Of a stretch of 64,000 nt of DNA, positions 2,521-28,566 are shown piece by piece. Where the stretch lies: NCBI GenBank assembly GCA_001775095.1, contig MFCA01000029.1, positions 55,975 to 119,974 on the forward strand. The letters run 5' to 3'. The number at the start of each line of letters is the position of its first letter. The stretch's first letter is position 1. The translations under genes were made by a program, and so were the position numbers. Origin of the DNA: Candidatus Curtissbacteria bacterium RIFOXYA1_FULL_41_14. Its GTDB lineage: Bacteria > Patescibacteriota > Microgenomatia > Curtissbacterales > GWA2-41-24. Under the pieces are notes generated by a model that saw only the letters and a program-made list of their open reading frames with translations, made no database searches and was not told where the DNA came from.

Positions 2521-3882
2521 TCAACCCGAATTTGCGGTCGGACCCCTATTTAGCCTGGAGTTGATTTGTGATGCCAAACTTGCAATTTTTACTCTTTCTT
2601 GTTTTGTCGTGTCACGATCACGGATAGTTACTGTATCATCCTCCAAAGTTTTAAAGTCGATGGTCACACAATACGGCGTGCCGATTTCGTCCTGAGAGTA
2701 ATAACGCTTTCCGATATTTCCCCGCTCATCCCAGGCAATGGGTAAAAGTTCACGGTTCACAGTTAACAGTTCACGGACCAAGCGGGCTTTTTTGACTAGT
2801 TCCGGTTTGTTGGCCAAAAGCGGGAAGACGGCAACCTTGACCGGTGCAAGTTTGGGATTAAGTTTTAGGACAACTCGGCCTTGTCCTGAGTTTGTCGAAG
2901 GATCTTTGTCTTCATTATATGCGTCAATTAAAAAGAAGAGTGCGGCGCGGTCTACACCTCCTGAGGTTTCAATAATCCATGGCAAATAATGCTTACCGGT
3001 TTCCTGATCGAAGTATTGCATATCTTGACCGGAAGATTTTTGATGTTGTGAAAGATCCCAGTCCCCCCGATTGTGAATTCCTTCGAACTCTTTCCAGCCA
3101 AAGGGTGAATCGTATTCAATATCCCAAGCATCCCGGGCATAATGGGCTCGTTCATTTTCTTCGTGCTGACGGAAACGGAGCTTGTTTTCAGTCATACCTA
3201 GCGTCCGGTACCAATTCATTCTTTCTTTTTTCCAATATTCATACCATTTTCTTGCCTGGCTTTCTTCTGGTTTGATATAAAACTGCAGTTCCATCTGTTC
3301 AAATTCTCTTGAGCGGAAAGTAAAGTTCCCCGGGTTAATTTCGTTGCGGAAAGCCTTACCTATTTGGGCAATCCCAAAAGGTATTTGCAGTCTTGTCGAG
3401 TCTAAAACATTTTTAAAGTTGACATGAACACCTTGAGTAATTTCGCCGCGAAGATAAACCTTTTGTTTAGCCTCCTCAACTACTCCTAATTTTGCCTCAA
3501 CCAAAAGATTGAATTTTCTGGACGGGGTCCATTGGGTCTTTTTGCCTTGGTGAGATTTTTCGTGACCTGCCAAATCTTCTTTTTGATCCGCCTTAAATCT
3601 TTGATGACAGATTTTACACTCCACCAAAGGATCGACAAAAGCCTTGACATGGCCGGACGCTTCCCAAACCTTTGGATTCATCAAGATTGCTGCATCAATC
3701 CCGACAACATCATTCCGTCCGTAAACAGTTGATTGCCAAAAAGCTTCCTTGATATTGTTTTTAAGTTCTACACCCAAAGGACCATAATCCCAAGTTCCCC
3801 CCAAGCCGCCATAAATTTCTGAGCCCGGAAAAATAAAGCCTCGGCGCTTACAAAGAGAAACGATCTTATCAAGAGTAGTCAT
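2521..3882 (-). CDS. glyQS: glycine--tRNA ligase, dimeric class II form
   Basis: N-terminus MTTLDKIVSLCKRRGFIFPGSEIYGGLGGTWDYGPLG is the classic GlyQS signature. Full-length, 453 aa. Confidence 0.9.
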   Translation of the reverse strand: MTTLDKIVSLCKRRGFIFPGSEIYGGLGGTWDYGPLGVELKNNIKEAFWQSTVYGRNDVVGIDAAILMNPKVWEASGHVKAFVDPLVECKICHQRFKADQKEDLAGHEKSHQGKKTQWTPSRKFNLLVEAKLGVVEEAKQKVYLRGEITQGVHVNFKNVLDSTRLQIPFGIAQIGKAFRNEINPGNFTFRSREFEQMELQFYIKPEESQARKWYEYWKKERMNWYRTLGMTENKLRFRQHEENERAHYARDAWDIEYDSPFGWKEFEGIHNRGDWDLSQHQKSSGQDMQYFDQETGKHYLPWIIETSGGVDRAALFFLIDAYNEDKDPSTNSGQGRVVLKLNPKLAPVKVAVFPLLANKPELVKKARLVRELLTVNRELLPIAWDERGNIGKRYYSQDEIGTPYCVTIDFKTLEDDTVTIRDRDTTKQERVKIASLASQINSRLNRGPTANSG

Positions 3883-4730: not shown

Positions 4731-4878
4731 CTCAATTTAAATTTCGAAATCCTAAATTCTAAATCCGAAACAAATCCAAATATTCAAAATTCTAAATTCA
4801 AAATACCTAATGTTCAAGAACTTGAATTTAGATATTGTTTAGAATTTCGTGCTTAGTATTTTGGACTTGCAAACAAAA
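4731..4878. repeat. AT-rich intergenic inverted-repeat element, family A copy 1
   Basis: cctaaattctaaatccgaaacaaatccaaat ... gaatttagatattgtttagaatttcg. The arms are mutually complementary. Related copies at 8069-8250, 14534-14701 and 17331-17422. Confidence 0.55.
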
Positions 4879-8068: not shown

Positions 8069-8250
8069 ATCCTGAAAAATTCTAATTTCTAAATCCTAAA
8101 TCCTAAACAAATCTAAATGACCAAAATATAAAATTTAAAACAATTTAAAAAAAACAAATTTACTTTTTTGTTTTTTGAACATTTGAATTTTGATATTGTT
8201 TAGAGTTTAGAATTTAGCGTTTAGAATTTGATTAGCTATTAGGTCAATTT
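8069..8250. repeat. AT-rich intergenic inverted-repeat element, family A copy 2
   Basis: tctaaatcctaaatcctaaacaaatctaaatgaccaaaata...ttgaacatttgaattttgatattgtttagagtttagaatttag. Nearly identical to 14534-14701. Lies between a gene 3' end and the next gene start on the minus strand. Confidence 0.6.
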
Positions 8251-9351: not shown

Positions 9352-9430
9352 GTTATTAAAGTATCAAAGGTATCAAAGGTTATAGAACATTATGCGTATG
9401 ATACTTGTGGTACTTCTGATACTTGTGGTA
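9352..9430. repeat. tandem direct repeats (gtatcaaag x2; 18-mer gatacttgtggtacttct x2.5)
   Basis: Seen directly. The 18-mer array encodes the SQVSEVPQVSEVPQVS tail of the GT4 at 9390-10535 on the minus strand. Confidence 0.65.
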
Positions 9431-10535
9431 CTTCTGATACTTGTGATACATATCTCTCGAGTTCTTCTATAAAGTGCTTTTTCGAGAATCTCGTCGCGTT
9501 CTTCCTGCAAACTTGTATCTTCCATTTTACCCTACTTAATCTTCCAATTGCATCTTGGAGTGCTTGCGCCGATTGATTATCAAATAAAATTCCAGTTCTG
9601 CCATCTTCGACAGTCTCACTGACACCGCTTTGCCTATAAGCAATTACCGGAATACCACAGGCTTGTGCCTCTACTGCAGCAATACCAAAATCTTCTTCCT
9701 GGGTCACTATCAGGGCCTGGCAATTTTGATAAAGTTCGCGAAGCTGCTCTCTTGTTACTCTGCCAAGAAACTCAATATCTCCTGTCCTGTCATCTCGAAC
9801 CAATCTTTTAAGTCTCGATCTATCCGGTCCCTCCCCGACTATTTTTAGACTTTTTCCCATATTAGATATTGCCTTAATTGCTATATCAATCTTTTTCCAT
9901 TTCACGAGTCTGGTGACCACTAGGAAATAATTTTGACTTTTAAGTTCCCAGTTGTGAACTTTGGCAACCTGGAAAAAATTTAGGTCAACGAACGGATAAA
10001 TTACTTCGGACTCTCTTTCGTAAAATTTTTTAATTTTTTTGCTAATATTTGCCGAATTCGCGACAAACAAATCAGGTCGACAGGAGGATACTTTATCCCA
10101 TCTTTTGAGCCATATTAAGATTGGCTTAAAAATGAGTCTTAACATAATTGGTAAATAATCAGCCTGAGCTTTGCGCCCGTATAAAAATCTTGGAATACTG
10201 TTCATATAGCAAATATGCATCGTTCTGGGTTGAGTAATAATTGATTTGGCGAAGCGGGTAGTTGAGGAGATTACAAGATCGAATTCATTGAAATTAAAAC
10301 TCTCAAATGCCAATGGGTAAAGTGGTAAAAGAGCTTTATACAATTTGGCAGCAAAAGGAATTTTCTGCATCCAGGAGGGCCGGATTCTATCCCGGTTTAT
10401 TGTGGAAGGTAATTTCTTCCAATCAACGAAGGAGGTATAGATTGGAGCTTTGGGCCAAATGGAAGCGATGGTAGCAAACAGACTCTCCGCTCCTCCGGCT
10501 TGAACGAAGTCATCGTGTACAAGGGCTACTTTCAT
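9390..10535 (-). CDS. glycosyltransferase family 4 with repetitive C-terminal tail
   Basis: GT4 architecture with EDFGIAAVEAQACGIPVIA donor-binding motif. C-terminus ends in a repeat-encoded VSEVPQ tract. Confidence 0.8.
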   Translation of the reverse strand: MKVALVHDDFVQAGGAESLFATIASIWPKAPIYTSFVDWKKLPSTINRDRIRPSWMQKIPFAAKLYKALLPLYPLAFESFNFNEFDLVISSTTRFAKSIITQPRTMHICYMNSIPRFLYGRKAQADYLPIMLRLIFKPILIWLKRWDKVSSCRPDLFVANSANISKKIKKFYERESEVIYPFVDLNFFQVAKVHNWELKSQNYFLVVTRLVKWKKIDIAIKAISNMGKSLKIVGEGPDRSRLKRLVRDDRTGDIEFLGRVTREQLRELYQNCQALIVTQEEDFGIAAVEAQACGIPVIAYRQSGVSETVEDGRTGILFDNQSAQALQDAIGRLSRVKWKIQVCRKNATRFSKKHFIEELERYVSQVSEVPQVSEVPQVSYA

Positions 10536-12394: not shown

Positions 12395-13594
12395 CTAGAG
12401 GCTGTATTGTACATAAACCTTAAGTGTCTCTCTGGCCATCTTAAGCCAAGAGTATTTTTGCACTTGTTCCAAGCCCTTTACTACGAGGTCGGACCTCGTA
12501 GTTGTATCTGTGAGGACTTTTTGGATTTTTCTGGATATATCTTTTGGATCCTCTGGATCGAAATACAATGCGGCATCCCCGTAGATTTCTTTAAGTGTCG
12601 GAATGTTTGAACAAACTGCCGGAAGGCCCGCGGCCATGGAATTAAGACCGGGAATTCCAAACCCCTCCGAAAGTGATGGGAATACATAAGCTTGGGCAGA
12701 TCTTAAGACTTCTGATAATTCTTTTGGCGGAATATAGCCAGTCAGGACAACTCCCTCCTCTAATCCTAGATTCTTTATCCTTTCTTTTAGGCGTTGCCAG
12801 AAAATATCCCGAGGACAGACAAGGATTAAGTGCAGCTTGCGCTCACCCCAGGGGTGTTTTTCTATTCTGTGAACCGTTGACTGTGAACCGTGAACTAAAA
12901 TCTTGAAAGCTTGCAGTAACCGTTCAAGATTTTTGTGTGGATAAGCATTCCCTATATAAATGATAAAAGGCTGATTAATATTGTATTTCTCCAAAAACTT
13001 TGAACTTTGAACTTTGAACTTTGAACTTGTTCGGAAGTATTCCTCTTCTGCCGCTTCGTATGTTACGACGATTTTCGCAGGATCAATTCGAAAAGTCCTA
13101 ACAATCTCGTCCTTAACAAAATTCGAGGGGGTGAGGATTTTTTGAGAATCTTTGACAGCATGATTAATAACATGTCGATAAGCAAACCTTTTAATTTTAA
13201 AAATGTAAAGATTCCGAGTCGTTGCGGATTCTTGTCTAAATCGATGATGGATCAGGTCATGAATTGTTACTATGAATTTACCTCTGTAAAAAACAGGCAC
13301 GTTAAAATGAGTAAAGTGTAAAAGATCTAAATTCTGGTTTGAAAAAATTTTTGGTAATTTAATTTGCTCTTTGAGAGAATACCAGGGGATATCTGCTAAA
13401 ACCTTTTTGAAATTTTTGGATTTTAACCTTAGCCAATCCCAGTTAGACCGGCGCAGAAAAATAACATACTGATTATTGTCATCTAAAATTGCGAGATTTT
13501 CGATAAGTTTTTCAGTATATTTACCAAGACCTGTACCTTCCGGACCGACAAACCTCGCATCAATACCAATTCTCATATATCCCCCTCTTGTCAT
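12395..13594 (-). CDS. glycosyltransferase family 4 (probable true start MRIGIDAR at 13576), carries heptamer tract and gtgaac-repeat insert
   Basis: MRIGIDARF N-terminus and PSLSEGFGIPGLNSMAAG motif. Extra loop GSQSTVHRIEKHPWGERKLH relative to paralog 23002-24141. Confidence 0.8.
   Translation of the reverse strand: MTRGGYMRIGIDARFVGPEGTGLGKYTEKLIENLAILDDNNQYVIFLRRSNWDWLRLKSKNFKKVLADIPWYSLKEQIKLPKIFSNQNLDLLHFTHFNVPVFYRGKFIVTIHDLIHHRFRQESATTRNLYIFKIKRFAYRHVINHAVKDSQKILTPSNFVKDEIVRTFRIDPAKIVVTYEAAEEEYFRTSSKFKVQSSKFLEKYNINQPFIIYIGNAYPHKNLERLLQAFKILVHGSQSTVHRIEKHPWGERKLHLILVCPRDIFWQRLKERIKNLGLEEGVVLTGYIPPKELSEVLRSAQAYVFPSLSEGFGIPGLNSMAAGLPAVCSNIPTLKEIYGDAALYFDPEDPKDISRKIQKVLTDTTTRSDLVVKGLEQVQKYSWLKMARETLKVYVQYSL
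12998..13029. repeat. heptanucleotide tract (CTTTGAA)x4 plus partial unit inside GT4 coding sequence
   Basis: Seen: ctttgaactttgaactttgaactttgaacttg, encoding SSKFKVQSSKF on the minus strand. Unit length is not a multiple of 3. Confidence 0.75.
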
Positions 13595-13595
13595 C

Positions 13596-13650
13596 CTGAG
13601 GAAGCAAAGCGACCAAAGGATTTGATTTTATGGACGCAATAGCGGTCATG
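13596..13650. repeat. family B element copy (ttgtcatcctgagg ... aaggatttg) in intergenic spacer
   Basis: Shares GTCATCCTGAG core with 705-795 and 19859-19893. Confidence 0.45.
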
Positions 13651-14533
13651 CTGACATAATTCTGATTCTCAATAAAATCTTCAAAGAAATTAATACCAGC
13701 CAATTAATAAAAAATGGGTATTTTAAAAGATAATGTTTTTTATAAAAAATCTCCATTGCTCTGACTGATTCTGTAAGGGCCCGCTTTTTTGAATCTATAG
13801 ATGCTTTTGTCAGGTGCTGAGATGTTTGTTTCATTCCGGAGGCGGCCCCTTTGTAGTGGATAATTTTGGTTCTTGGAGTGTACATAATCTTGTATCCGGC
13901 GTCTTTAAATCGCCAACACCAATCAAGATCTTCGCCATAAAAGAAAAAATCCTCATCAAATAGGCCGACTTTTTTAACTATAGATTGTCGAACCATCATA
14001 AAAGCACCAACGCAGGAATCTATCTCGTGTTCAGTTGCAGGTGATAAATACCCAAAATAGTATTGATTGAATAACTTAGAATGGGGAAATAATTTCGCCA
14101 GTTTTGAAAAATGACAAAAAGCTCGCCATGGAGTCGGAAAATGCCGGCGACAATCGCGATCTATCTGGCCGTTAGGTAGTTCAACTCTACAGGTAGAGAC
14201 CGCAATTTTCGGGTCTTTTTCCATAAACTTAATCATTTCTGAAATAGTGTCAGGGGCCAGTTTTGTGTCCGGATTTAATATCAGCACATATTTTCCCTTT
14301 GCAAGCTTTAATGCCTGGTTATTGGCTTTGGAAAAACCTAGATTTTTTTTATTTGCTATTAGCTTAATCTGAGGATAATCTTTCTTGATCATCGCGGCCG
14401 TATTATCAGAAGAATTATTGTCGACGACGAATATCTCTGTCTGAAATTCTTTGGAAGAACCGATAACTGAATTTAGGCAAGATTTGAGAAGTTCTTTTGT
14501 ATTGAAAGAGACGATGATGATAGATAAATCCAT
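13646..14533 (-). CDS. glycosyltransferase family 2
   Basis: MDLSIIIVSFNT...VVDNNSSDNT...WCWRFKDAGYKIMYTP typical of GT2 (rhamnosyl/galactosyl-transferase type). Confidence 0.8.
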   Translation of the reverse strand: MDLSIIIVSFNTKELLKSCLNSVIGSSKEFQTEIFVVDNNSSDNTAAMIKKDYPQIKLIANKKNLGFSKANNQALKLAKGKYVLILNPDTKLAPDTISEMIKFMEKDPKIAVSTCRVELPNGQIDRDCRRHFPTPWRAFCHFSKLAKLFPHSKLFNQYYFGYLSPATEHEIDSCVGAFMMVRQSIVKKVGLFDEDFFFYGEDLDWCWRFKDAGYKIMYTPRTKIIHYKGAASGMKQTSQHLTKASIDSKKRALTESVRAMEIFYKKHYLLKYPFFINWLVLISLKILLRIRIMSA

Positions 14534-14701
14534 AATAAATTTCTAATTTCTAAATCCTAAATCCTAAATCCTAAACAAATTCAAATGACCAAAATACATA
14601 ATTCAAAACAAATCTTAATTTTTTGGTTTATTTGAACATTTGAATTTTGATATTGTTTAGAGTTTAGATATTAGAGTTTAGGATTTTTATTAGTTATTAG
14701 G
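14534..14701. repeat. AT-rich intergenic inverted-repeat element, family A copy 3
   Basis: Near-identical to 8069-8250 apart from the central ~25 bp, including the attaggtcaattt end that overlaps the upstream gene stop. Confidence 0.6.
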
Positions 14702-17330: not shown

Positions 17331-17422
17331 TTGTTAAACTCCAAACTCTAAACCCTAAATTCCAAATAATATCAAAATTTCAAATTTGAAGGTTTAGAGT
17401 TTTTGAATTTAGGCATCTGAAT
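17331..17422. repeat. family A copy 4 (short form)
   Basis: aaactctaaaccctaaattccaaa ... ttgaaggtttagagtttttgaatttagg inverted repeat. Lacks the central segment of copies 2 and 3. Confidence 0.45.
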
Positions 17423-19087
17423 TTATTTGGAATTTGTGATTTGTGATTTGAGATTTACTTTTGTTGTGGTTGCTAATTTAACTGTAGCCAAAAGTATGGC
17501 CACCATGATCCAAAAAGTGTAAGCTACCTTGGAGGCTTCAAAAACATCGATATAAAGAGAGTTAACAAGAAGACCTAAGGTGGCAGCGATCAAAGCGGCG
17601 ACGAGAGTCGAGGCAAAAGGATCGTTAATTTTTTTAAAGTTAACAAGAGAATACCAGATAATAAAGGCGATTATTCCAAAAAAGGCCAAAAATCCTGAAA
17701 GACCGGTCTCCCCAAGGGCTCTTAAAAAATCATTGTCCGTTGACTCAGCCTCTGTAAAATCTTCGATATTTCTTTTGGTTAAAGTTGAATAACCGGAGCC
17801 AAAAATCGGATTGCGGGTAAATCCTTTAATTGCTTGGGGCCAAGTGTAATCGAGACGGATTCCGGTTGACAGGTCGTATTGAACCGCAGCTTGTGAGTAA
17901 ACTCGGGGTTTTGCAGCCAGTGTGGCCGGCAAACTTTCCCCTTCTCCATATTCAGGGACGTCCTCATAAACGTCGGCAGGTACTGCACCAGTAACCGGCG
18001 ATCCAGTGGTTGGTTTTTGAGTAGTGGGAGGTGTATCCGATTTTGAGCCGACATCTTTTCCGATATCAAGATAAGCCGCTTGGGCTCCACCTGGAGGTTC
18101 CTTTTTAAGAGGTTTCAGAGCAAATGAGGTTTTGAACGCGTCTAATTTCAGGACATGGGCAAAACGGTCTGAAAGATCGCCAAAAGAAATCATGACAACA
18201 AGAGAAAAAACAATCACAATTGACCAGCGAGAAACACTCCAAAGCCAACCTCTCTTAAGGATCAATAAGCTAAAAACAATTGTTATCGAAACTAGATAGG
18301 CCAAAAAAGATGTTCGTGAAACGGTTAGAATCAAAAGCCAAAAGCCGGCCAGGCTAACAATCAAAAAAAGTAGCTTATGAGTGATTTTCTTAAGAATGGT
18401 AATTAGGGGAATGAAAATCGTCAGAACAATCATTAAATAGGCTGCTAAATCATAGTGGCCACCGAAAGTTGACAGTACCCTAGCATGCTCAGTCAGATAG
18501 AGTTTTACACCTTTGGAAAACTCTCGATTCATCGTCGAAAATGCCGGCCAATAAAGGTACTTTTGGCCGAATCCGTAGATCGAAACTCCCAAAAGGACAA
18601 CGGCAGCAAGAAAGATATATTTTTTTATCTGAGCTAACGATTTTATGGATGAGAAAAATATAAAAAAGACCGAAAAATATTCCACTCTTCTTATGAAATG
18701 CAAATAGAGTTTTTCCATATGAAGTGCCTGAACAGGAACAGTTTTAGTCCAAAAAAGGGCGGAAAGTGTAGAGAGAAAACCAACAATAACATAGACACCA
18801 ATGGGAATAAACAAGGGGTTACCTCTAAGAGTTACTTTTTTTCGGATAAGCCAGATTACCCAAATACCGAATGCTAGTGCTACTAAAAGATCATCCGGCC
18901 TAAGTCTTACTAAATAGCCGGGGATAAGGTCCGCAATCGGAATTTTGGGGTAAAGTGGAATAAAAATAAGAAGAGCAAGAGATAAATATTCAAGGATGTG
19001 ATCATCGAGCCATGTTAAACCAGGCTTAAACCGCCTTAAAAGCTTCGACATACGATTTTGCAAGCTCCTTTCTTCCCAAGAGACCAA
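17423..19087 (-). CDS. O-antigen ligase / polymerase-like (Wzy_C domain) membrane protein with Pro/Thr-rich extracytoplasmic linker
   Basis: Multi-TM protein with GHYDLAAYLMIV...TVSRTSFLAYLVSITIVFSLLIL resembling the Wzy_C/WaaL core. PTTQKPTTGSPVTGAVP low-complexity loop. Confidence 0.5.
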   Translation of the reverse strand: MVSWEERSLQNRMSKLLRRFKPGLTWLDDHILEYLSLALLIFIPLYPKIPIADLIPGYLVRLRPDDLLVALAFGIWVIWLIRKKVTLRGNPLFIPIGVYVIVGFLSTLSALFWTKTVPVQALHMEKLYLHFIRRVEYFSVFFIFFSSIKSLAQIKKYIFLAAVVLLGVSIYGFGQKYLYWPAFSTMNREFSKGVKLYLTEHARVLSTFGGHYDLAAYLMIVLTIFIPLITILKKITHKLLFLIVSLAGFWLLILTVSRTSFLAYLVSITIVFSLLILKRGWLWSVSRWSIVIVFSLVVMISFGDLSDRFAHVLKLDAFKTSFALKPLKKEPPGGAQAAYLDIGKDVGSKSDTPPTTQKPTTGSPVTGAVPADVYEDVPEYGEGESLPATLAAKPRVYSQAAVQYDLSTGIRLDYTWPQAIKGFTRNPIFGSGYSTLTKRNIEDFTEAESTDNDFLRALGETGLSGFLAFFGIIAFIIWYSLVNFKKINDPFASTLVAALIAATLGLLVNSLYIDVFEASKVAYTFWIMVAILLATVKLATTTKVNLKSQITNSK

Positions 19088-21690: not shown

Positions 21691-22950
21691 TTATGAAGTT
21701 TTTTCCGAAGCAACTTTTTCGAGGACCTGTAGGGTAATTTTGGCGCATTTTTGCCAGGAAAAGTGCTTGATGTTGGAAAAACCATTTTTGACCAGGTCGG
21801 ATCTGATTTTTGGGTCAAGAGTCTTTTTAATACCGTCGGCTATTGACTGGATACTTTCAGGATTGATAAGTATGGCGCTACACCTAAGATCCACCCCTGG
21901 GGTGTTCTCAGGGTGACGTCCTGACTTCACCTCAGGGGTGAGCGAGTTGGCTCCTACTATTTCCGGCAGACTTGAGGTGTTGGAAACAACAACCGGCACT
22001 CCACAAGCTTGAGCCTCGATAACCGGAATACCAAAGCCTTCCCAAAGCGAAGGCAAGACGTAGGCTCGAGCTCCACTGATCAAAACTGGTAAGTCGGAAT
22101 CGGAAACGTAATCAGTAAAAATAACTTTGTTTTGTAGTCCCAAGGTCTTGACTTTTTTGAAAATTGAATCATAAAGCCAACCTTTCTTGCCGACAATCAC
22201 CAATAATAAGTTGTCGGTTATCGGTTTACGGTTCACGGTTTTTTTATTCCTGTGAACTGTGAACTGCCTGCCCTGAGCGAAGTCGAAGGGTGAACTGTGA
22301 ACTAGAATCTTGAAAGCTTCTAAAAGTCTTTCAAGATTCTTGCGCGGCTGGAGTGTACCGACAAAAATAATGTAATCGCTAGAAATTTTATATTTCTTTT
22401 TCATTCTATCAATAGAATATTTAGATTGCGGCTTGAAGCGATCTTTGTCATACCCCTCATAGGTGACAGTAATCTTCGAAGGAGCGACATTGTAATTTTT
22501 AACAATATCGTCTTTTGTAGTTTGCGAAACAGCAATGATATGGGTTGCTTTTTTGATGGAAGCTTTAGTACCAAAAGTCAGCTGAATAAGATCGCTTTTT
22601 TTAAAAAGTTCTGAATAATGTAGAAATGAAAGATCATGGATAGTTACTACTTGCGGCACTGGACAGATCCTTGGAAGGTAATGAGCAGTTGAGAAGTAAA
22701 CACTTGTTCTTTTGTTGACGATTAGGTGCAATGGTAAGGCGAGTTGAGTCCAGAACTTCCTAGGTCCGAGAACTTTGTACTGAAAGCTGGCAATAGGTTT
22801 TGGTAAATCAGGAAGTGGTTTGTCCTTAAGGTAAACAATAAACTGATGTCTTTTGTCTTTAACAAATTGCCAAAGTAGTTCAAAAGCGTATTGACCGGTA
22901 CCAACTCTGGTTCGTACATTTGCTTCATTTCCGTCTATTCCTATAAGCAT
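21691..22950 (-). CDS. glycosyltransferase family 4 carrying an in-frame repeat-derived insert
   Basis: MLIGIDGNEANV N-terminus and PSLWEGFGIPVIEAQACGVPVV motif. Extra loop SSPFDFAQGRQFTVHRNKKTVNRKPITDN is encoded by repeat 22224-22304. Confidence 0.8.
   Translation of the reverse strand: MLIGIDGNEANVRTRVGTGQYAFELLWQFVKDKRHQFIVYLKDKPLPDLPKPIASFQYKVLGPRKFWTQLALPLHLIVNKRTSVYFSTAHYLPRICPVPQVVTIHDLSFLHYSELFKKSDLIQLTFGTKASIKKATHIIAVSQTTKDDIVKNYNVAPSKITVTYEGYDKDRFKPQSKYSIDRMKKKYKISSDYIIFVGTLQPRKNLERLLEAFKILVHSSPFDFAQGRQFTVHRNKKTVNRKPITDNLLLVIVGKKGWLYDSIFKKVKTLGLQNKVIFTDYVSDSDLPVLISGARAYVLPSLWEGFGIPVIEAQACGVPVVVSNTSSLPEIVGANSLTPEVKSGRHPENTPGVDLRCSAILINPESIQSIADGIKKTLDPKIRSDLVKNGFSNIKHFSWQKCAKITLQVLEKVASEKTS
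22224..22304. repeat. composite element (gtgaact direct repeats flanking ccctgagcgaagtcgaaggg core) inserted in-frame in a GT4 gene
   Basis: ggttcacgg...ctgtgaactgtgaactg-cctgccctgagcgaagtcgaaggg-tgaactgtgaactag. Core is 20/21 identical to 731-750. A coreless version (gtgaaccgttgactgtgaaccgtgaact) sits at the homologous site of GT4 12395-13594. Confidence 0.55.
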
Positions 22951-22951
22951 A

Positions 22952-22986
22952 GTGATTAGTGATTAGTGATTAGTGATTAGTGATTA
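22952..22986. repeat. heptanucleotide tract (GTGATTA)x5 abutting the start codon of GT4 21691-22950
   Basis: Seen: gtgattagtgattagtgattagtgattagtgatta, one base after the minus-strand ATG (22948-22950). The whole 51-bp intergenic spacer is mostly this repeat. Confidence 0.8.
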
Positions 22987-23001
22987 GTCACTACACACTA
23001 T

Positions 23002-24141
23002 TCACTTTTCACTGCTTTTAACCACCTCCTCATAGACTTTTAAAGTTTCCTTAGCGGTCTTAATCCAGGTATATTGCCTTGCTCGATTTAGGCTAGCATT
23101 AACCATCTTCTGATAACTATCCAAGTTTAAATTTAAAACCATCTCGATTGCTCGCTTTATCTGGCTTTCGCTTCTTGGATCAACAAGAATTGCAGCATCC
23201 TTGGCAATTTCGGTCATGGAAGAATTATTGGAGGTAATTACCGGTGTACCACAAGCCATTGCTTCGAGAATTGGCAGACCAAATCCTTCATAAAGCGATG
23301 GATAAACAAAAACCCGGCACCCACTATAGAGTGCCGTAAGATCATCTCTCGGAATGAAACCTGTTGAAACAATTCGATCATTGTCCTTGAAACTAGGGTC
23401 TTGCCCCCATCCATGCTTCCCGGTTAAAACTAAACTTAAATTAGGATTTTCTTTCTGAATTTTTTCAAAGACATCGACTAATTTTTGAATATTTTTTCTC
23501 GGTTCCCAAGTTGCAACTGATAAAATGTAAGGCTTTTTAATTTTGTATTTTTCTAAAACTTCTTTTACTTTGTCATCATCCTGGGGTTTGAAAATCACAG
23601 AAGAAGCAAGATAGACGACGGTTACTTTTTCTTGGGGAATTTCTAAAAATTTCACAAGATCCTCTTTGGTCGTTTCGGAATCTGTAATAATCGCATCAAC
23701 TTCGGCTTTAACAATTTTAAGTCTTCGTTTCTGATTAGAAACTATTTTTGGGTGAGAAGAAGATGGAAAAAGATATGCAATCATGTCATGGACAGTGGTT
23801 ACTTTTTTTGTACGTTGCGACCTTACAGGGGGTTGCGTCCAATCGGATGAATGAAATACGTCAACTTCACCAAGAAATTTTTCTATGGGAAAGATATGCA
23901 ACTTATTCCAAAGAAATGCTAAAAGAAAGGGCGGATAATGGGTAATTTTGAACTCGACATTTTTGTATTGGGAAAGTTGTTTTTTGAAACCGGTCAATTT
24001 TTTATTGAGCCTCAGGGAAGATCCAAAAAGGATGTATTGATTTTTTCGATCAATTTTTAAGAGTGCTTCTACCAACTGCTTAGTATAATTTGAAACCCCG
24101 GTCCCGTAAACGATTTGAGAAATATCAATACCGATTTTCAT
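23002..24141 (-). CDS. glycosyltransferase family 4
   Basis: MKIGIDISQIVYGTG and PSLYEGFGLPILEAMACGTPVI motifs. No repeat insert. Confidence 0.85.
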   Translation of the reverse strand: MKIGIDISQIVYGTGVSNYTKQLVEALLKIDRKNQYILFGSSLRLNKKLTGFKKQLSQYKNVEFKITHYPPFLLAFLWNKLHIFPIEKFLGEVDVFHSSDWTQPPVRSQRTKKVTTVHDMIAYLFPSSSHPKIVSNQKRRLKIVKAEVDAIITDSETTKEDLVKFLEIPQEKVTVVYLASSVIFKPQDDDKVKEVLEKYKIKKPYILSVATWEPRKNIQKLVDVFEKIQKENPNLSLVLTGKHGWGQDPSFKDNDRIVSTGFIPRDDLTALYSGCRVFVYPSLYEGFGLPILEAMACGTPVITSNNSSMTEIAKDAAILVDPRSESQIKRAIEMVLNLNLDSYQKMVNASLNRARQYTWIKTAKETLKVYEEVVKSSEK

Positions 24142-27203: not shown

Positions 27204-28271
27204 TTATGAAATTGATAACTTATTAATAAGAGCTTGGTATTTTTGAGCCACTTTATTCCAGCTAAATTTTAGAGCTTGGGTGTAAGGAATATTTTTATAA
27301 TTTGTTTTTGCAGCAAGTTCTAGATCCTTGGCATACTGCTCAACGTTACCGGGATCAGTAAGAATTCCAGCGGGACCGATTATTTCAGCCCTGGAATCAT
27401 CTGCAGTGGTCACTACAGGGAGATTGCAGGCCATAGCCTCAACATAAGAAATTCCAAATGCTTCTGTTTTTGAAGCGAGAGTAAAAACATTTCCCGACCT
27501 GTAATAAGCAGGAATTTGCTCATAGGGCACCACTAATCTTAAATATCTTTTGCCTAAGAGCCTTTTGCCAAGAGTATCAATCATCCCATGCAACTGACCA
27601 TCTCCTAATATTAAAAGGCTTAAGTTTTTTGTCTTAGCAATAGCTTTAATGGTTAAATCCACTCTTTTATAGGGAACAAGGGCCGAAGCACAAACTGCTA
27701 TTGGCTTCGCTAGAGGCAAAGTCTTCGATTTAACCTTTGGATTGAAACGTGCCAGGTCAACTCCATTAGGAATTGTAACTATCTCGACCTCCGGAGCTAA
27801 CCGTTTTGCCCAGTCAGCCTCTGCCTTAGTTAAAGCTACAAAGACGTCAGGTCTAAAAAAAAGATTGGCGGCATCATCCGAGCCTATGCCCGCATGGCCA
27901 GAGGTTAAAATTTTTGCTCCTGTGATTTTCGTAACTATCCTAAAAACTAGTGTCTGCCATCCGCCGTTTAGGGGAATAATTAAATCGTATTTCCCTCTAT
28001 AGATCTTGAGTAAGGCTCTTAAGCTAAAAATCAATATTTTGACGGAACTCCAATCTAAATAAAATTTACTAAGTACGCCGCAAGTTGACTTTGGGGTACT
28101 GACGAACGATTTAATTTCTTCAACCCTATATTTTTGTGGTTTTGTATGGCCGGCCGCAAAAACCGTCACCTTATGTTTAACAGATAGACGTTTGCTAATT
28201 TCAAAAGCAAACGTTTCCACTCCCCTGTCGACTATCCCGGAATAGAAACTTAAAATAGCAATTTTATACAT
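27204..28271 (-). CDS. glycosyltransferase family 4 (start re-assigned to MYKIAILSF; track ORF extends to 28367 through the duplicated region)
   Basis: Canonical GT4 N-terminus MYKIAILSFYSG and SKTEAFGISYVEAMACNLPVV. The 31-aa upstream extension in the track is translation of repeat DNA. Confidence 0.8.
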   Translation of the reverse strand: MYKIAILSFYSGIVDRGVETFAFEISKRLSVKHKVTVFAAGHTKPQKYRVEEIKSFVSTPKSTCGVLSKFYLDWSSVKILIFSLRALLKIYRGKYDLIIPLNGGWQTLVFRIVTKITGAKILTSGHAGIGSDDAANLFFRPDVFVALTKAEADWAKRLAPEVEIVTIPNGVDLARFNPKVKSKTLPLAKPIAVCASALVPYKRVDLTIKAIAKTKNLSLLILGDGQLHGMIDTLGKRLLGKRYLRLVVPYEQIPAYYRSGNVFTLASKTEAFGISYVEAMACNLPVVTTADDSRAEIIGPAGILTDPGNVEQYAKDLELAAKTNYKNIPYTQALKFSWNKVAQKYQALINKLSIS

Positions 28272-28535
28272 ATTGGTAAAGTTTCTGCGGTCCTCGTTCC
28301 TCGATATCAGCCTTCGCCTTCGGCGAATCTGATATATCAGAGGAGTAATATTGAAACAAAGTTTCAAATTGATCTGCTGATATAAACTCGGAACTGCGGG
28401 CCTAAGAAACTTAAAATAGCAATTTTATACATATTGGTAAAGTTTCTGCGGTCCTCGTTCCTCGATATCAGAGGAGCAATATTGAAACAAAGTTTCAAAT
28501 TGATCTGCTGATATAAACTCGGAACTGCGGGCCTA
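28245..28535. repeat. tandem duplication (units ~160 bp and ~131 bp) covering promoter region and first 9 codons of GT4 27204-28271
   Basis: gaaacttaaaatagcaattttatacatattggtaaagtttctgcggtcctcgttcctcgatatcag[30-bp extra in copy 1]aggag(t/c)aatattgaaacaaagtttcaaattgatctgctgatataaactcggaactgcgggcctaa occurs twice head-to-tail. Copy 2 carries a 22-codon pseudo-ORF starting MYKIAILSF. Confidence 0.85.
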
Positions 28536-28566
28536 AGAAACTAAGAATTGCGATCTTGGTTATTTT

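What the first reader, a model, noticed from the sequence alone, without database searches (positions are those of the whole stretch)
12998..13029. Heptanucleotide tract (CTTTGAA)x4 inside a GT4 coding sequence: candidate phase-variation switch
Seen: four perfect heptamer units plus a partial unit inside gene 12395-13594 (minus strand). They encode SSKFKVQSSKF in frame. Gain or loss of one unit (7 nt) would shift the frame and truncate the glycosyltransferase.

Established: slipped-strand mispairing at short tandem repeats whose unit is not a multiple of three is a classic ON/OFF mechanism for surface-glycan genes.

Four units is a modest tract length, so instability is plausible but not certain.
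Basis: partly seen in the sequence, partly recalled or inferred. Interest (0 to 1): 0.65.

Follow-up and report, generated by a model that had tools for sequence, protein, structure and literature searches.

The report
Heptamer repeat in glycosyltransferase linker
A real 33-base run of a 7-base repeat sits in the flexible linker of a sugar-transferring enzyme of an uncultured groundwater bacterium (Candidatus Curtissbacteria); it is one of many such 7-base arrays in this lineage, and none of the dozens of assemblies available shows it acting as an on/off switch.

Summary
The tract is real: window 12996-13028 is a perfect period-7 run (AA + 4x CTTTGAA + CTT, 33 nt) inside a 399-aa GT4 gene, and it encodes TSSKFKVQSSKF. 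Gain or loss of one unit would truncate the protein at about 210 aa.

It is not an isolated device. Period-7 arrays are the dominant tandem repeat of the window. In 22 orthologues from other Curtissbacteria, period-7 arrays with different units occupy the same two loops of this enzyme and nowhere else in the gene (12 in the interdomain linker, 10 in a disordered loop). All are in frame.

A 73%-identical orthologue carries the same unit five times. One-unit slippage does occur in this species: an intergenic array at 22950 has 4 or 5 full units in near-identical strains.

The GT4 tract itself has 4 units wherever it was read directly (11 loci). All 24 and 23 contigs reached through neighbouring genes carry an intact GT4. 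No product predicted for 1, 2, 3, 5, 6 or 7 units exists among 15 billion proteins.

Best reading: a slippage-built coding microsatellite in an insertion-tolerant linker, kept in frame by selection. A working phase switch is not supported but not excluded, because only consensus assemblies were available, not reads.

The parts
12996..13028 (-). Perfect period-7 tract. On the coding (minus) strand it reads AAG + 4x TTCAAAG + TT and encodes residues 189-200 (TSSKFKVQSSKF).
12395..13594 (-). GT4 (GT-B fold, retaining-type) glycosyltransferase gene, 399 aa (or 393 aa from the ATG at 13576). NCBI names it 'mannosyltransferase B-like' in Candidatus Curtissbacteria GW2011_GWA1_40_47.
12869..12895 (-). 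Second, degenerate period-7 array in the same gene. On the coding strand it reads GTTCACG GTTCACA GTCAACG GTTCAC (residues 234-242, VHGSQSTVH). It lies in a disordered loop of the C-terminal domain (pLDDT below 50 at residues 239-245).
12844..12856 (.). 13-nt palindrome CACCCCAGGGGTG, just downstream of the second array in the direction of transcription and inside the same variable loop.
   Evidence: Read from the sequence. Comparable GC-rich palindromes interrupt the arrays of L060.
22950..22988 (-). Sister array used as a positive control for slippage. (TAGTGAT)5.6 on the plus strand equals (ATCACTA)n on the coding strand, running straight into the ATG of the GT4 paralogue 21691..22950. It has 5 full units in most strains and 4 in contig ERZ27254728 k141_935870.

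Best explanation
The tract is a coding heptanucleotide microsatellite. It is one member of a population of period-7 arrays that this Curtissbacteria lineage builds and remodels by slipped-strand mispairing of 7-nt units.

It sits in the interdomain linker of a conserved GT-B glycosyltransferase. That linker and one disordered loop of the C-terminal domain are the only two places in the enzyme that tolerate insertions. Arrays at these two sites appear to be inherited from an ancestor of the group and turn over by gain and loss of units, so the unit sequence and copy number differ between species while the period stays 7.

Selection on the enzyme removes out-of-frame lengths, so only in-frame states are seen. 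In the sampled population the tract is fixed at 4 units and the gene is ON. A one-unit slip would be a null mutation rather than a used switch state.

Shown: the tract, its position, the lineage-wide pattern, the live slippage at a sister array, and the invariance in assemblies. Inferred: ancestral origin, slippage as the generator at this site, and purifying selection as the reason for invariance.
For: 1. Period 7 is the dominant tandem period in the window. Perfect runs of 12 or more matches number 6 at period 7 and 0 at periods 4-6 and 8-13. TRF gives 21 of 57 rows at period 7.

2. The tract lies between the two Pfam domains, and between the last N-domain strand (E175-177) and the first C-domain strand (E210-214), with a local pLDDT of 67.

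3. In a 50-protein alignment nearly all length variation falls in the linker (13-42 aa) and the second loop (7-45 aa). One other segment, residues 100-139, also varies; that traces to a 16-aa insertion seen in L002.

4. In 22 orthologous genes, 28-nt windows with at least 75% period-7 identity occur in the linker of 12 genes and the second loop of 10, and nowhere else. Periods 4-6 and 8-12 give essentially nothing. The units differ between species: TTCAAAG, AGAAACT, AGGCCAG, AACCGTG, AAATGGC, TCAGCCG, CAACCAT and others.

5. Arrays are about 25 times denser inside this gene than in its flanks in Curtissbacteria, and absent from the orthologue in other CPR groups.

6. L055 (73% aa identity) has the same unit five times, perfect.

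7. Orthologue pairs with 92-96% identical cores can have entirely different loop sequences, so the loops turn over much faster than the enzyme.

8. A one-unit polymorphism exists at the 22950 array between strains that otherwise differ by 2 SNPs in 10 kb.

9. The tract is invariant.

10. Literature: heptameric repeats are reported as over-represented among long SSRs in many bacterial genomes, with polymerase slippage on a roughly 7-nt contact proposed as the cause (Mrazek et al. 2007, as summarised in PMC4679880 and PMC4692102).
Against: - All strain comparisons are consensus assemblies of one nearly clonal aquifer population (99.88-99.99% identity). Minority OFF cells would be invisible.
- Insertion tolerance alone does not explain why this one gene carries so many more arrays than its neighbours, which include GT4 paralogues.
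- The window and L055 share an identical perfect unit despite 27% protein divergence. This is odd under free neutral turnover.
- Keeping arrays homogeneous at constant length implies passage through out-of-frame intermediates or three-unit jumps. The first of these would amount to rare phase switching.
- Four contigs start or diverge exactly at the arrays, which could reflect real heterogeneity.
Confidence: 0.65

Rival explanations
1. A genuine contingency locus. The tract, and the arrays at the same sites in other Curtissbacteria, are maintained because reversible one-unit slippage switches this envelope glycosyltransferase OFF and ON in a minority of cells. Consensus assemblies show only the ON majority.
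For: - The unit is not a multiple of 3, the tract is perfect, and a one-unit change truncates the protein.
- The gene lies in a very large glycan-biosynthesis locus with Wzy_C, PMT_2, flippase, Bac_transf and many GTs.
- One-unit slippage is live at a sister array.
- Arrays persist at the same two sites across a whole candidate phylum, about 25 times denser than in the flanks.
- Concerted change of units at constant length is easiest to explain by gain of one unit followed by loss of another.
- Contigs break at the tract.
- Surveys of H. influenzae accept 3 or more heptanucleotide units as candidates (PMC2651432).
Against: - No length variant appears in any assembly or among 15 billion proteins.
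- 0 of 22 orthologues examined is out of frame. In neuO, 65.6% of genomes are OFF (PMC13001214).
- Only 4.7 units, and many orthologous arrays are degenerate, which suppresses slippage.
- The tract is mid-gene, not at the 5' end.
- The gene is conserved across CPR (48 loci; 5862 homologues at E <= 1e-60), unlike typical accessory phase-variable genes.
Confidence: 0.15
2. The arrays are joints for recombination or rearrangement, or footprints of a small mobile repeat. Shared heptamer arrays in the linkers of different GT4 genes would let N- and C-terminal Rossmann domains be swapped, or attract insertions.
For: - L058 follows the window's N-terminal half (99.25% identical over the BLAST match) through the 4-unit tract, then continues into a different GT4-like C-domain start (VGENYIIYIGTIQPRKNL).
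- L054 departs 6 nt after the tract into a Wzy_C fragment. L059 begins 9 nt before the tract. L056 departs inside the second array.
- The same unit families (GTTCAC/GTGAAC, AACTATG) recur in loops of different genes and species.
- GC-rich palindromes sit inside some arrays.
- L044 and L045 show that the enzyme can exist as two ORFs split at this linker.
Against: - The L058 junction is out of frame by my reading of the sequence, and its contig ends 36 nt later. The divergent tails of L054 (1087 nt) and L056 (248 nt) are likewise short pieces at contig ends.
- Multi-k de Bruijn assemblers can create such joins through a shared 28-33-nt repeat (my own knowledge, not tested).
- None of the long contigs shows a rearrangement.
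- Most arrays differ in unit, so they offer no homology between genes.
Confidence: 0.07
3. The repeat is selected at the protein level: the linker needs the peptide SSKFKVQ-SSKF, for example as a short amphipathic helix, and the DNA repetition is incidental.
For: - The model places a helix at residues 194-203, overlapping the end of the tract.
- L055 encodes the same peptide, and P0022 a similar one, VDSSKFKIQDSK.
Against: - Orthologues at 60-78% identity have unrelated peptides and lengths at this site.
- Selection on a peptide would not keep every synonymous position identical in all units. The DNA is perfectly periodic with period 7, not 21.
- Local model confidence is low.
Confidence: 0.03

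Closest known systems
neuO of E. coli K1 prophage CUS-3: (AAGACTC)n heptanucleotide repeat inside the coding sequence of a capsule O-acetyltransferase
   Same: A 7-nt unit tandemly repeated and translated inside the ORF of a surface-glycan-modifying enzyme. Only copy numbers that keep the frame (steps of three units) give full-length protein. Slipped-strand mispairing is the mechanism (PMC13001214).
   Different: neuO has 3-53 units, most commonly 20. 65.6% of complete genomes are OFF, and single cultures contain 20/21/22-unit mixtures (PMC13001214). Here there are 4.7 units, mid-gene rather than at the 5' end, no length variant in any assembly and no OFF allele.
Heptanucleotide SSRs of Haemophilus influenzae: hmw1A/hmw2A promoter repeats, and (AATTTTG)14 inside hmw1a of strain PittAA
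   Same: 7-nt SSRs linked to surface structures. One lies in an ORF and is associated with a frameshift. A threshold of 3 or more units was used to nominate candidates (PMC2651432).
   Different: Those arrays have 13-38 copies and differ between strains. Most act in promoters (PMC2651432). The tract here is short and invariant.
Heptanucleotide class of long simple sequence repeats in prokaryotic genomes (Mrazek et al. 2007), including cyanobacterial heptamer repeats (Calothrix, Nostoc) and Xanthomonas GGGAATC
   Same: Over-representation of period 7 relative to neighbouring periods. Arrays of a few units, mostly intergenic and some in ORFs. Copy number and sequence vary between related genomes. 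Polymerase slippage on a roughly 7-nt contact has been proposed as the cause (PMC4679880, PMC4692102). The window shows the same signature and a real one-unit polymorphism.
   Different: [quoted passage not shown] Here there are many unrelated units, and the strongest concentration is in two loops of one conserved enzyme across a candidate phylum. I found no paper linking heptamer repeats to CPR bacteria.
TAACTGA direct repeats of marine Beggiatoaceae
   Same: Short arrays (2-6 copies) of a heptamer placed immediately upstream of start codons (PMC4679880). This matches the (ATCACTA)n array that abuts the ATG at 22950 and the (TTTAGGA)n arrays just upstream of the ATGs at 14533 and 8068.
   Different: A single conserved unit genome-wide in Beggiatoaceae, against many units here. 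It is relevant to the sister arrays, not to the coding tract itself.

Membership tests
SSR-mediated contingency (phase-variable) locus | Tandem repeat whose unit is not a multiple of 3, placed so that a one-unit change alters the reading frame or expression | tested here: met
   7-nt unit inside the ORF. +1 unit gives a 208-aa product and -1 unit gives 211 aa; +/-3 units stay in frame.
SSR-mediated contingency (phase-variable) locus | Tract long and perfect enough to be hypermutable | tested here: inconclusive
   Perfect, but only 4.7 units. It passes the screening threshold of 3 or more units used for H. influenzae, but proven heptanucleotide switches carry 13-38 or about 20 units (PMC2651432, PMC13001214). 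A 5.6-unit array in the same genome does slip.
SSR-mediated contingency (phase-variable) locus | Copy-number polymorphism among closely related strains or within a population | tested here: not met
   4 units in every locus where the tract was read. All 24 and 23 contigs found through neighbouring genes carry an intact 393/399-aa GT4. Predicted products of 1, 2, 3, 5, 6 and 7 units are absent from about 15 billion proteins. These are consensus assemblies only; reads were not available.
SSR-mediated contingency (phase-variable) locus | Out-of-frame (OFF) alleles present among genomes | tested here: not met
   0 of 22 orthologues examined is out of frame. The only two-frame orthologues (L044, L045) have no array and look like a fixed split gene.
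SSR-mediated contingency (phase-variable) locus | Measured reversible switching with a phenotype | not testable with these tools
   The organism is uncultured, and neither reads nor experiments were available.
Heptanucleotide long SSR class of prokaryotic genomes (Mrazek et al. 2007) | Perfect or near-perfect tandem array of a 5-11-nt unit, longer than composition predicts | tested here: met
   33-nt perfect run. Shuffles give a mean of 0.2 runs of 9 or more matches.
Heptanucleotide long SSR class of prokaryotic genomes (Mrazek et al. 2007) | Excess of period 7 over neighbouring periods in the same genome | tested here: met
   Runs of 12 or more matches: 6 at period 7 against 0 at periods 4-6 and 8-13. 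TRF score >= 40: 11 rows of period 7 against 0-2 for every other period except 14, which has 5. Only 64 kb of the genome was available.
Heptanucleotide long SSR class of prokaryotic genomes (Mrazek et al. 2007) | Unit gain or loss between related genomes (slippage) | tested here: met
   4 against 5 full units at 22950 between near-identical strains. 4 against 5 units of the same TTCAAAG tract between the window and L055.
GT4 family glycosyltransferase (GT-B fold) | N-terminal Glyco_transf_4 and C-terminal Glycos_transf_1 domains above Pfam thresholds | tested here: met
   PF13439 40.3 bits (cut-off 28.5) and PF00534 107.8 bits (cut-off 26.4).
GT4 family glycosyltransferase (GT-B fold) | Two Rossmann-like domains matching solved GT4 enzymes | tested here: met
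   Model pLDDT 86.5. Foldseek top hits are MshA, GlgM, BshA, PimA, WaaG and PglA, E 1e-22 to 1e-14, TM about 0.7-0.77.
GT4 family glycosyltransferase (GT-B fold) | Donor and acceptor specificity (the source calls it 'mannosyltransferase B-like') | not testable with these tools
   This is a name given by a source only.
neuO-type translated heptanucleotide VNTR | Array at the 5' end of the ORF, forming an N-terminal heptad extension | tested here: not met
   The array encodes residues 189-200 of 399, in the interdomain linker, and spans only about 1.6 heptads.

The most novel reading that the evidence does not exclude
The two heptamer-array sites of this conserved envelope glycosyltransferase are maintained contingency sites throughout Candidatus Curtissbacteria. 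Rare reversible one-unit slips switch the enzyme off in a minority of cells, and perhaps let domains be exchanged between GT4 genes. This would give these ultra-small, probably host-attached bacteria a heritable way to vary their surface glycan. It would be the first simple-sequence phase variation described in the Candidate Phyla Radiation. It would also explain why arrays persist at the same sites, with changing units, about 25 times more densely than in flanking DNA.
Probability: 0.1. Interest if true: 0.7.

Novelty: new member of a known kind. Interest (0 to 1): 0.35.

Why it matters
Taken alone the tract is an ordinary coding microsatellite, and the proposed switch is unsupported.

What is worth keeping is the context. 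An uncultured CPR lineage shows a strong, live bias towards 7-nt tandem arrays, with one-unit polymorphism between near-identical strains. The arrays build protein loops, 5' leaders that abut start codons, and the arms of a dispersed intergenic hairpin element. Across a whole candidate phylum they occupy the same two loops of one conserved glycosyltransferase while their unit sequence turns over.

That pattern is a clean natural system for asking why period 7 is favoured in bacteria, a question left open since the 2007 survey. It also flags the array at 22950 as a better candidate for expression modulation in a CPR surface-glycan locus. Practically, it warns annotators that contigs and gene calls break at these arrays.

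Tried and rejected
- Flank-anchored, variable-gap scan of the metagenome collection for other tract lengths. Only one 1250-nt contig was returned, with 4 units. The collection evidently holds few of the relevant contigs, so the test had little power.
- Search for relatives between 73% and 100% identity that could show recent copy-number change. None exists. P0002 (90%) is a read-assembled variant with an unrelated 36-aa deletion and an unchanged tract.
- Short cluster members P0123, P0124, P0126 and P0043 looked like possible frameshift products. Their DNA shows 4 units and contigs that start or diverge at or near the arrays, not one-unit changes. The divergent tails match nothing else held, except that L058's tail resembles the C-domain start of a GT4 paralogue in L060. 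Whether these are chimeras or rearrangements is unresolved.
- Hairpin or other structure in the tract: none (DNA fold z = -0.08).
- Known RNA families in the window: none at gathering threshold.
- tRNA genes in the window: none.
- Programmed -1 frameshift 'slippery heptamer' (X XXY YYZ): considered from the sequence and rejected, because G TTT TTG does not fit the pattern.
- Protein-level repeat: rejected, see rivals.
- The idea that arrays track glycan genes in general: rejected. The array-free half of the window (35-64 kb) is also glycan biosynthesis, with similar GC.
- P0030/P0035 and P0007/P0009 were checked as possible intermediate-divergence pairs. They are 99% identical, so uninformative.
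Full report
OBSERVATION.
The sequence at 12996-13028 reads AA (CTTTGAA)x4 CTT, a perfect 33-nt run of period 7 (TRF 4.7 copies, 100% matches). Otherwise the description is exact.

The tract lies in ORF 12395..13594 on the minus strand and is translated as TSSKFKVQSSKF, residues 189-200. The gene is a GT4/GT-B glycosyltransferase. Pfam places Glyco_transf_4 at residues 68-179 and Glycos_transf_1 at 205-371. An AlphaFold model with mean pLDDT 86.5 is closest to MshA, BshA, PimA, WaaG and PglA, TM 0.7-0.77. Adding or removing one unit truncates the product at 208 or 211 aa. Three units keep the frame.

A run of this length is not a chance event. Shuffled windows give on average 0.2 period-7 runs of 9 or more matches, against 8 observed, and this run has 26 matches.

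ORGANISM AND LOCUS.
The exact protein is annotated in NCBI as coming from Candidatus Curtissbacteria bacterium GW2011_GWA1_40_47, an uncultured CPR/Patescibacteria organism. It recurs on many groundwater metagenome contigs.

The whole 64-kb window is a glycan-biosynthesis region. It holds many GT2 and GT4 genes, PMT_2, Wzy_C, a flippase, Bac_transf, sugar-nucleotide enzymes and an ABC-2 exporter.

THE TRACT IS NOT ALONE.
Period 7 dominates the tandem repeats of the window.
- 21 of 57 TRF rows are period 7.
- There are 4 perfect arrays of 3 or more copies at period 7, and none at periods 4-6 or 8-15.
- There are 6 runs of 12 or more matches at period 7, and none at periods 4-6 or 8-13.

About half of the arrays lie in the few percent of DNA that is intergenic. 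The rest sit in loops of coding genes. The same GT4 gene holds a second, degenerate array (GTTCACN x4, 12869-12895) in a loop that the model leaves disordered (pLDDT below 50 at residues 239-245).

COMPARATIVE RESULT.
A scan of one genome per species returned 48 loci with the orthologue. Three closer relatives came from the protein search: L055, L060 and L061, at 71-73% identity.

In a 50-protein alignment nearly all length variation falls in two segments. These are the interdomain linker that holds the tract (13-42 aa) and the second loop (7-45 aa). One other segment, residues 100-139, also varies; that traces to a 16-aa insertion seen in L002.

At the DNA level, 28-nt windows with at least 75% period-7 identity occur in the linker of 12 of 22 orthologous genes and in the second loop of 10. 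They occur nowhere else in any gene, and other periods give essentially nothing.

The units differ from species to species. Linker units include TTCAAAG, AGAAACT, AGGCCAG, AACCGTG, AAATGGC, TCAGCCG, CAACCAT, CAAACGT, AAGTATC and GAAACNA. Second-loop units include GTTCACN, AACCATA, GACTACG, ACCACCA, AACTATG and AATTGGA. Most arrays have 3-6 units, many are degenerate, and some show 14- or 21-nt super-periods. All are in frame.

At TRF score 40 or higher, Curtissbacteria loci carry 19 period-7 rows inside this gene (about 24 kb in total) against 6 in about 193 kb of flanks. The more distant CPR loci (35-47% identity) carry none in the gene.

L055 has the same unit as the window, five perfect copies instead of four, in a linker 3 nt shorter. 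P0022 has a decayed version of the same peptide. Orthologue pairs whose cores are 92-96% identical can have completely different loop sequences. The loops therefore turn over far faster than the enzyme, and unit variants change in concert.

IS IT SWITCHING? ASSEMBLY-LEVEL TESTS.
Five near-identical strain loci (99.88-99.99% over 14-21 kb) show no copy-number change at any heptamer array in the region. They were retrieved by exact protein identity, so they are biased with respect to the tract itself.

I therefore retrieved contigs through the two neighbouring genes. 24 and 23 contigs were read, and all carry an intact 393/399-aa GT4. The five loci fetched (from four distinct contigs) all have 4 units.

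The 90% cluster of the protein contains no frameshift product. Exact look-ups of the products predicted for 2, 3, 5 and 6 units (both start codons) and for 1 and 7 units find nothing among about 15 billion proteins. The one metagenome-collection hit also has 4 units.

IS SLIPPAGE LIVE IN THIS ORGANISM?
Yes. The intergenic array at 22950-22988 reads (ATCACTA)n on the coding strand and runs straight into the ATG of the GT4 paralogue 21691..22950. It has 5 full units in most strains but 4 in contig ERZ27254728 k141_935870. That contig otherwise differs by two SNPs over 10 kb. The same contig has the usual 4 units at the GT4 tract (L066).

Larger repeats also vary between strains: an 18-nt in-frame unit at 9399 and a repeat of about 131 nt at 28244-28542.

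INTERPRETATION.
The tract is best read as a coding heptanucleotide microsatellite in an insertion-tolerant linker. It belongs to a lineage-wide set of period-7 arrays that slippage builds and remodels, held in frame by selection on a conserved enzyme.

This agrees with the literature. Heptameric repeats are reported as over-represented among long SSRs in many bacteria, possibly because about 7 nt is the polymerase contact length (Mrazek et al. 2007, as summarised in PMC4679880 and PMC4692102).

Proven heptanucleotide switches look very different. neuO carries 3-53 units, most commonly 20, with 65.6% of genomes OFF and mixed lengths within cultures (PMC13001214). The H. influenzae hmw arrays have 13-38 copies (PMC2651432).

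The switch reading is not excluded. Only consensus sequences of one almost clonal population were available. Homogeneous arrays of constant length imply occasional passage through out-of-frame states. The concentration of arrays in this one gene is not explained by tolerance alone. I put it at about 0.15.

UNRESOLVED.
Four contigs start or diverge exactly at the arrays.
- L054 is identical to the window up to 6 nt past the tract, then continues into a Wzy_C fragment.
- L058 follows the N-terminal half (99.25% identical over the BLAST match) through 4 units, then enters a different GT4-like C-domain start, out of frame by my reading.
- L059 begins 9 nt before the tract.
- L056 departs inside the second array.

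These may be assembly chimeras through shared repeats or real rearrangements; reads are needed. Two distant orthologues (L044, L045) are split into two overlapping ORFs exactly at the linker, with no array. This shows that polypeptide continuity at this point is dispensable in some lineages.

All 21 period-7 rows of the window lie in its first 35 kb. The array-free remainder is also glycan biosynthesis, with similar GC.

NOVELTY.
The tract itself is a new member of a known kind. I found no paper connecting heptamer repeats with CPR bacteria. The position-conserved, unit-variable arrays in one enzyme across a candidate phylum may therefore be undescribed. That is a comparative curiosity rather than a new mechanism.

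Noticed in passing
window 22950-22988 (and 22988-23013): Perfect (TAGTGAT)5.6 array. On the coding strand it reads (ATCACTA)n and runs directly into the ATG of GT4 paralogue 21691..22950, filling most of the 51-nt spacer after the upstream gene. It has 5 full units in most strains and 4 in contig ERZ27254728 k141_935870. This is a real one-unit polymorphism and a better candidate for expression modulation than the tract in the finding.
   Followed up: yes
window 9399-9449: 18-nt (2 x 9) in-frame tandem repeat at the 3' end of GT4 gene 9390..10535, giving the tail SEVPQVSEVPQVS. One unit fewer in strains L050 and L069 (375 against 381 aa).
   Followed up: partly
window 28244-28542: Tandem repeat of about 131 nt spanning the start of GT4 27204..28367 and the spacer upstream. 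Its copy number differs among near-identical strains: L062 is shorter and L064 longer than the window.
   Followed up: partly
window 4740-4868, 8077-8243, 14534-14701, 17335-17449 (inverted): Four copies of a 150-170-nt intergenic element whose two arms are heptamer arrays, (TCTAAAC)n and (GTTTAGG/A)n. It folds into one long hairpin (RNA z = -3.8; 0 of 200 shuffles as stable). The AGGA-containing array ends about 10 nt before the downstream start codon. No Rfam match.
   Followed up: partly
window 2747-2774, 12869-12895, 22222-22266; L001, L003, L014, L060 second loop: Arrays built on GTTCAC / GTGAAC recur in loops of unrelated genes (a class II aminoacyl-tRNA synthetase, this GT4, a GT4 paralogue) and in several species. 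They are sometimes paired as inverted arrays (VH..SQ..VH ... TVNREP peptides).
   Followed up: no
L044 3780-3960; L045 5440-5620: In two low-GC Patescibacteria genomes the orthologous GT4 is encoded as two overlapping ORFs split exactly at the interdomain linker (...YESN* / MSQINIKKPYLLYVGN...). This looks like a fixed split GT-B enzyme rather than a repeat-induced frameshift.
   Followed up: partly
L054 3605-4692; L056 1003-1250; L058 780-834; L059 1-9: Four short or terminal metagenome contigs diverge from, or begin at, the window sequence exactly at one of the two arrays of this gene. Whether these are chimeric assembly through shared repeats or real rearrangement is unresolved.
   Followed up: partly
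window 3599-3659 (L051): One strain carries a 61-nt deletion inside the aminoacyl-tRNA synthetase gene 2521..3882. This shortens the called product from 453 to 361 aa.
   Followed up: no
L060 linker and second loop; L004 and L011 linker; window 13590-13630: Small GC-rich palindromes interrupt some arrays, as in L060. L004 and L011 carry GTCATCCTGAGCGGAGCGAAGGATC-like sequences, encoding RHPERSEGS-type peptides, in the linker. A similar sequence lies just upstream of the window's GT4 gene. The two loops seem to collect more than one kind of short insertion.
   Followed up: no
window 1-64000: All 21 period-7 TRF rows lie between 2.7 and 35.3 kb, and none between 35.3 and 64 kb. That half is also glycan biosynthesis, with similar GC content.
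   Followed up: partly
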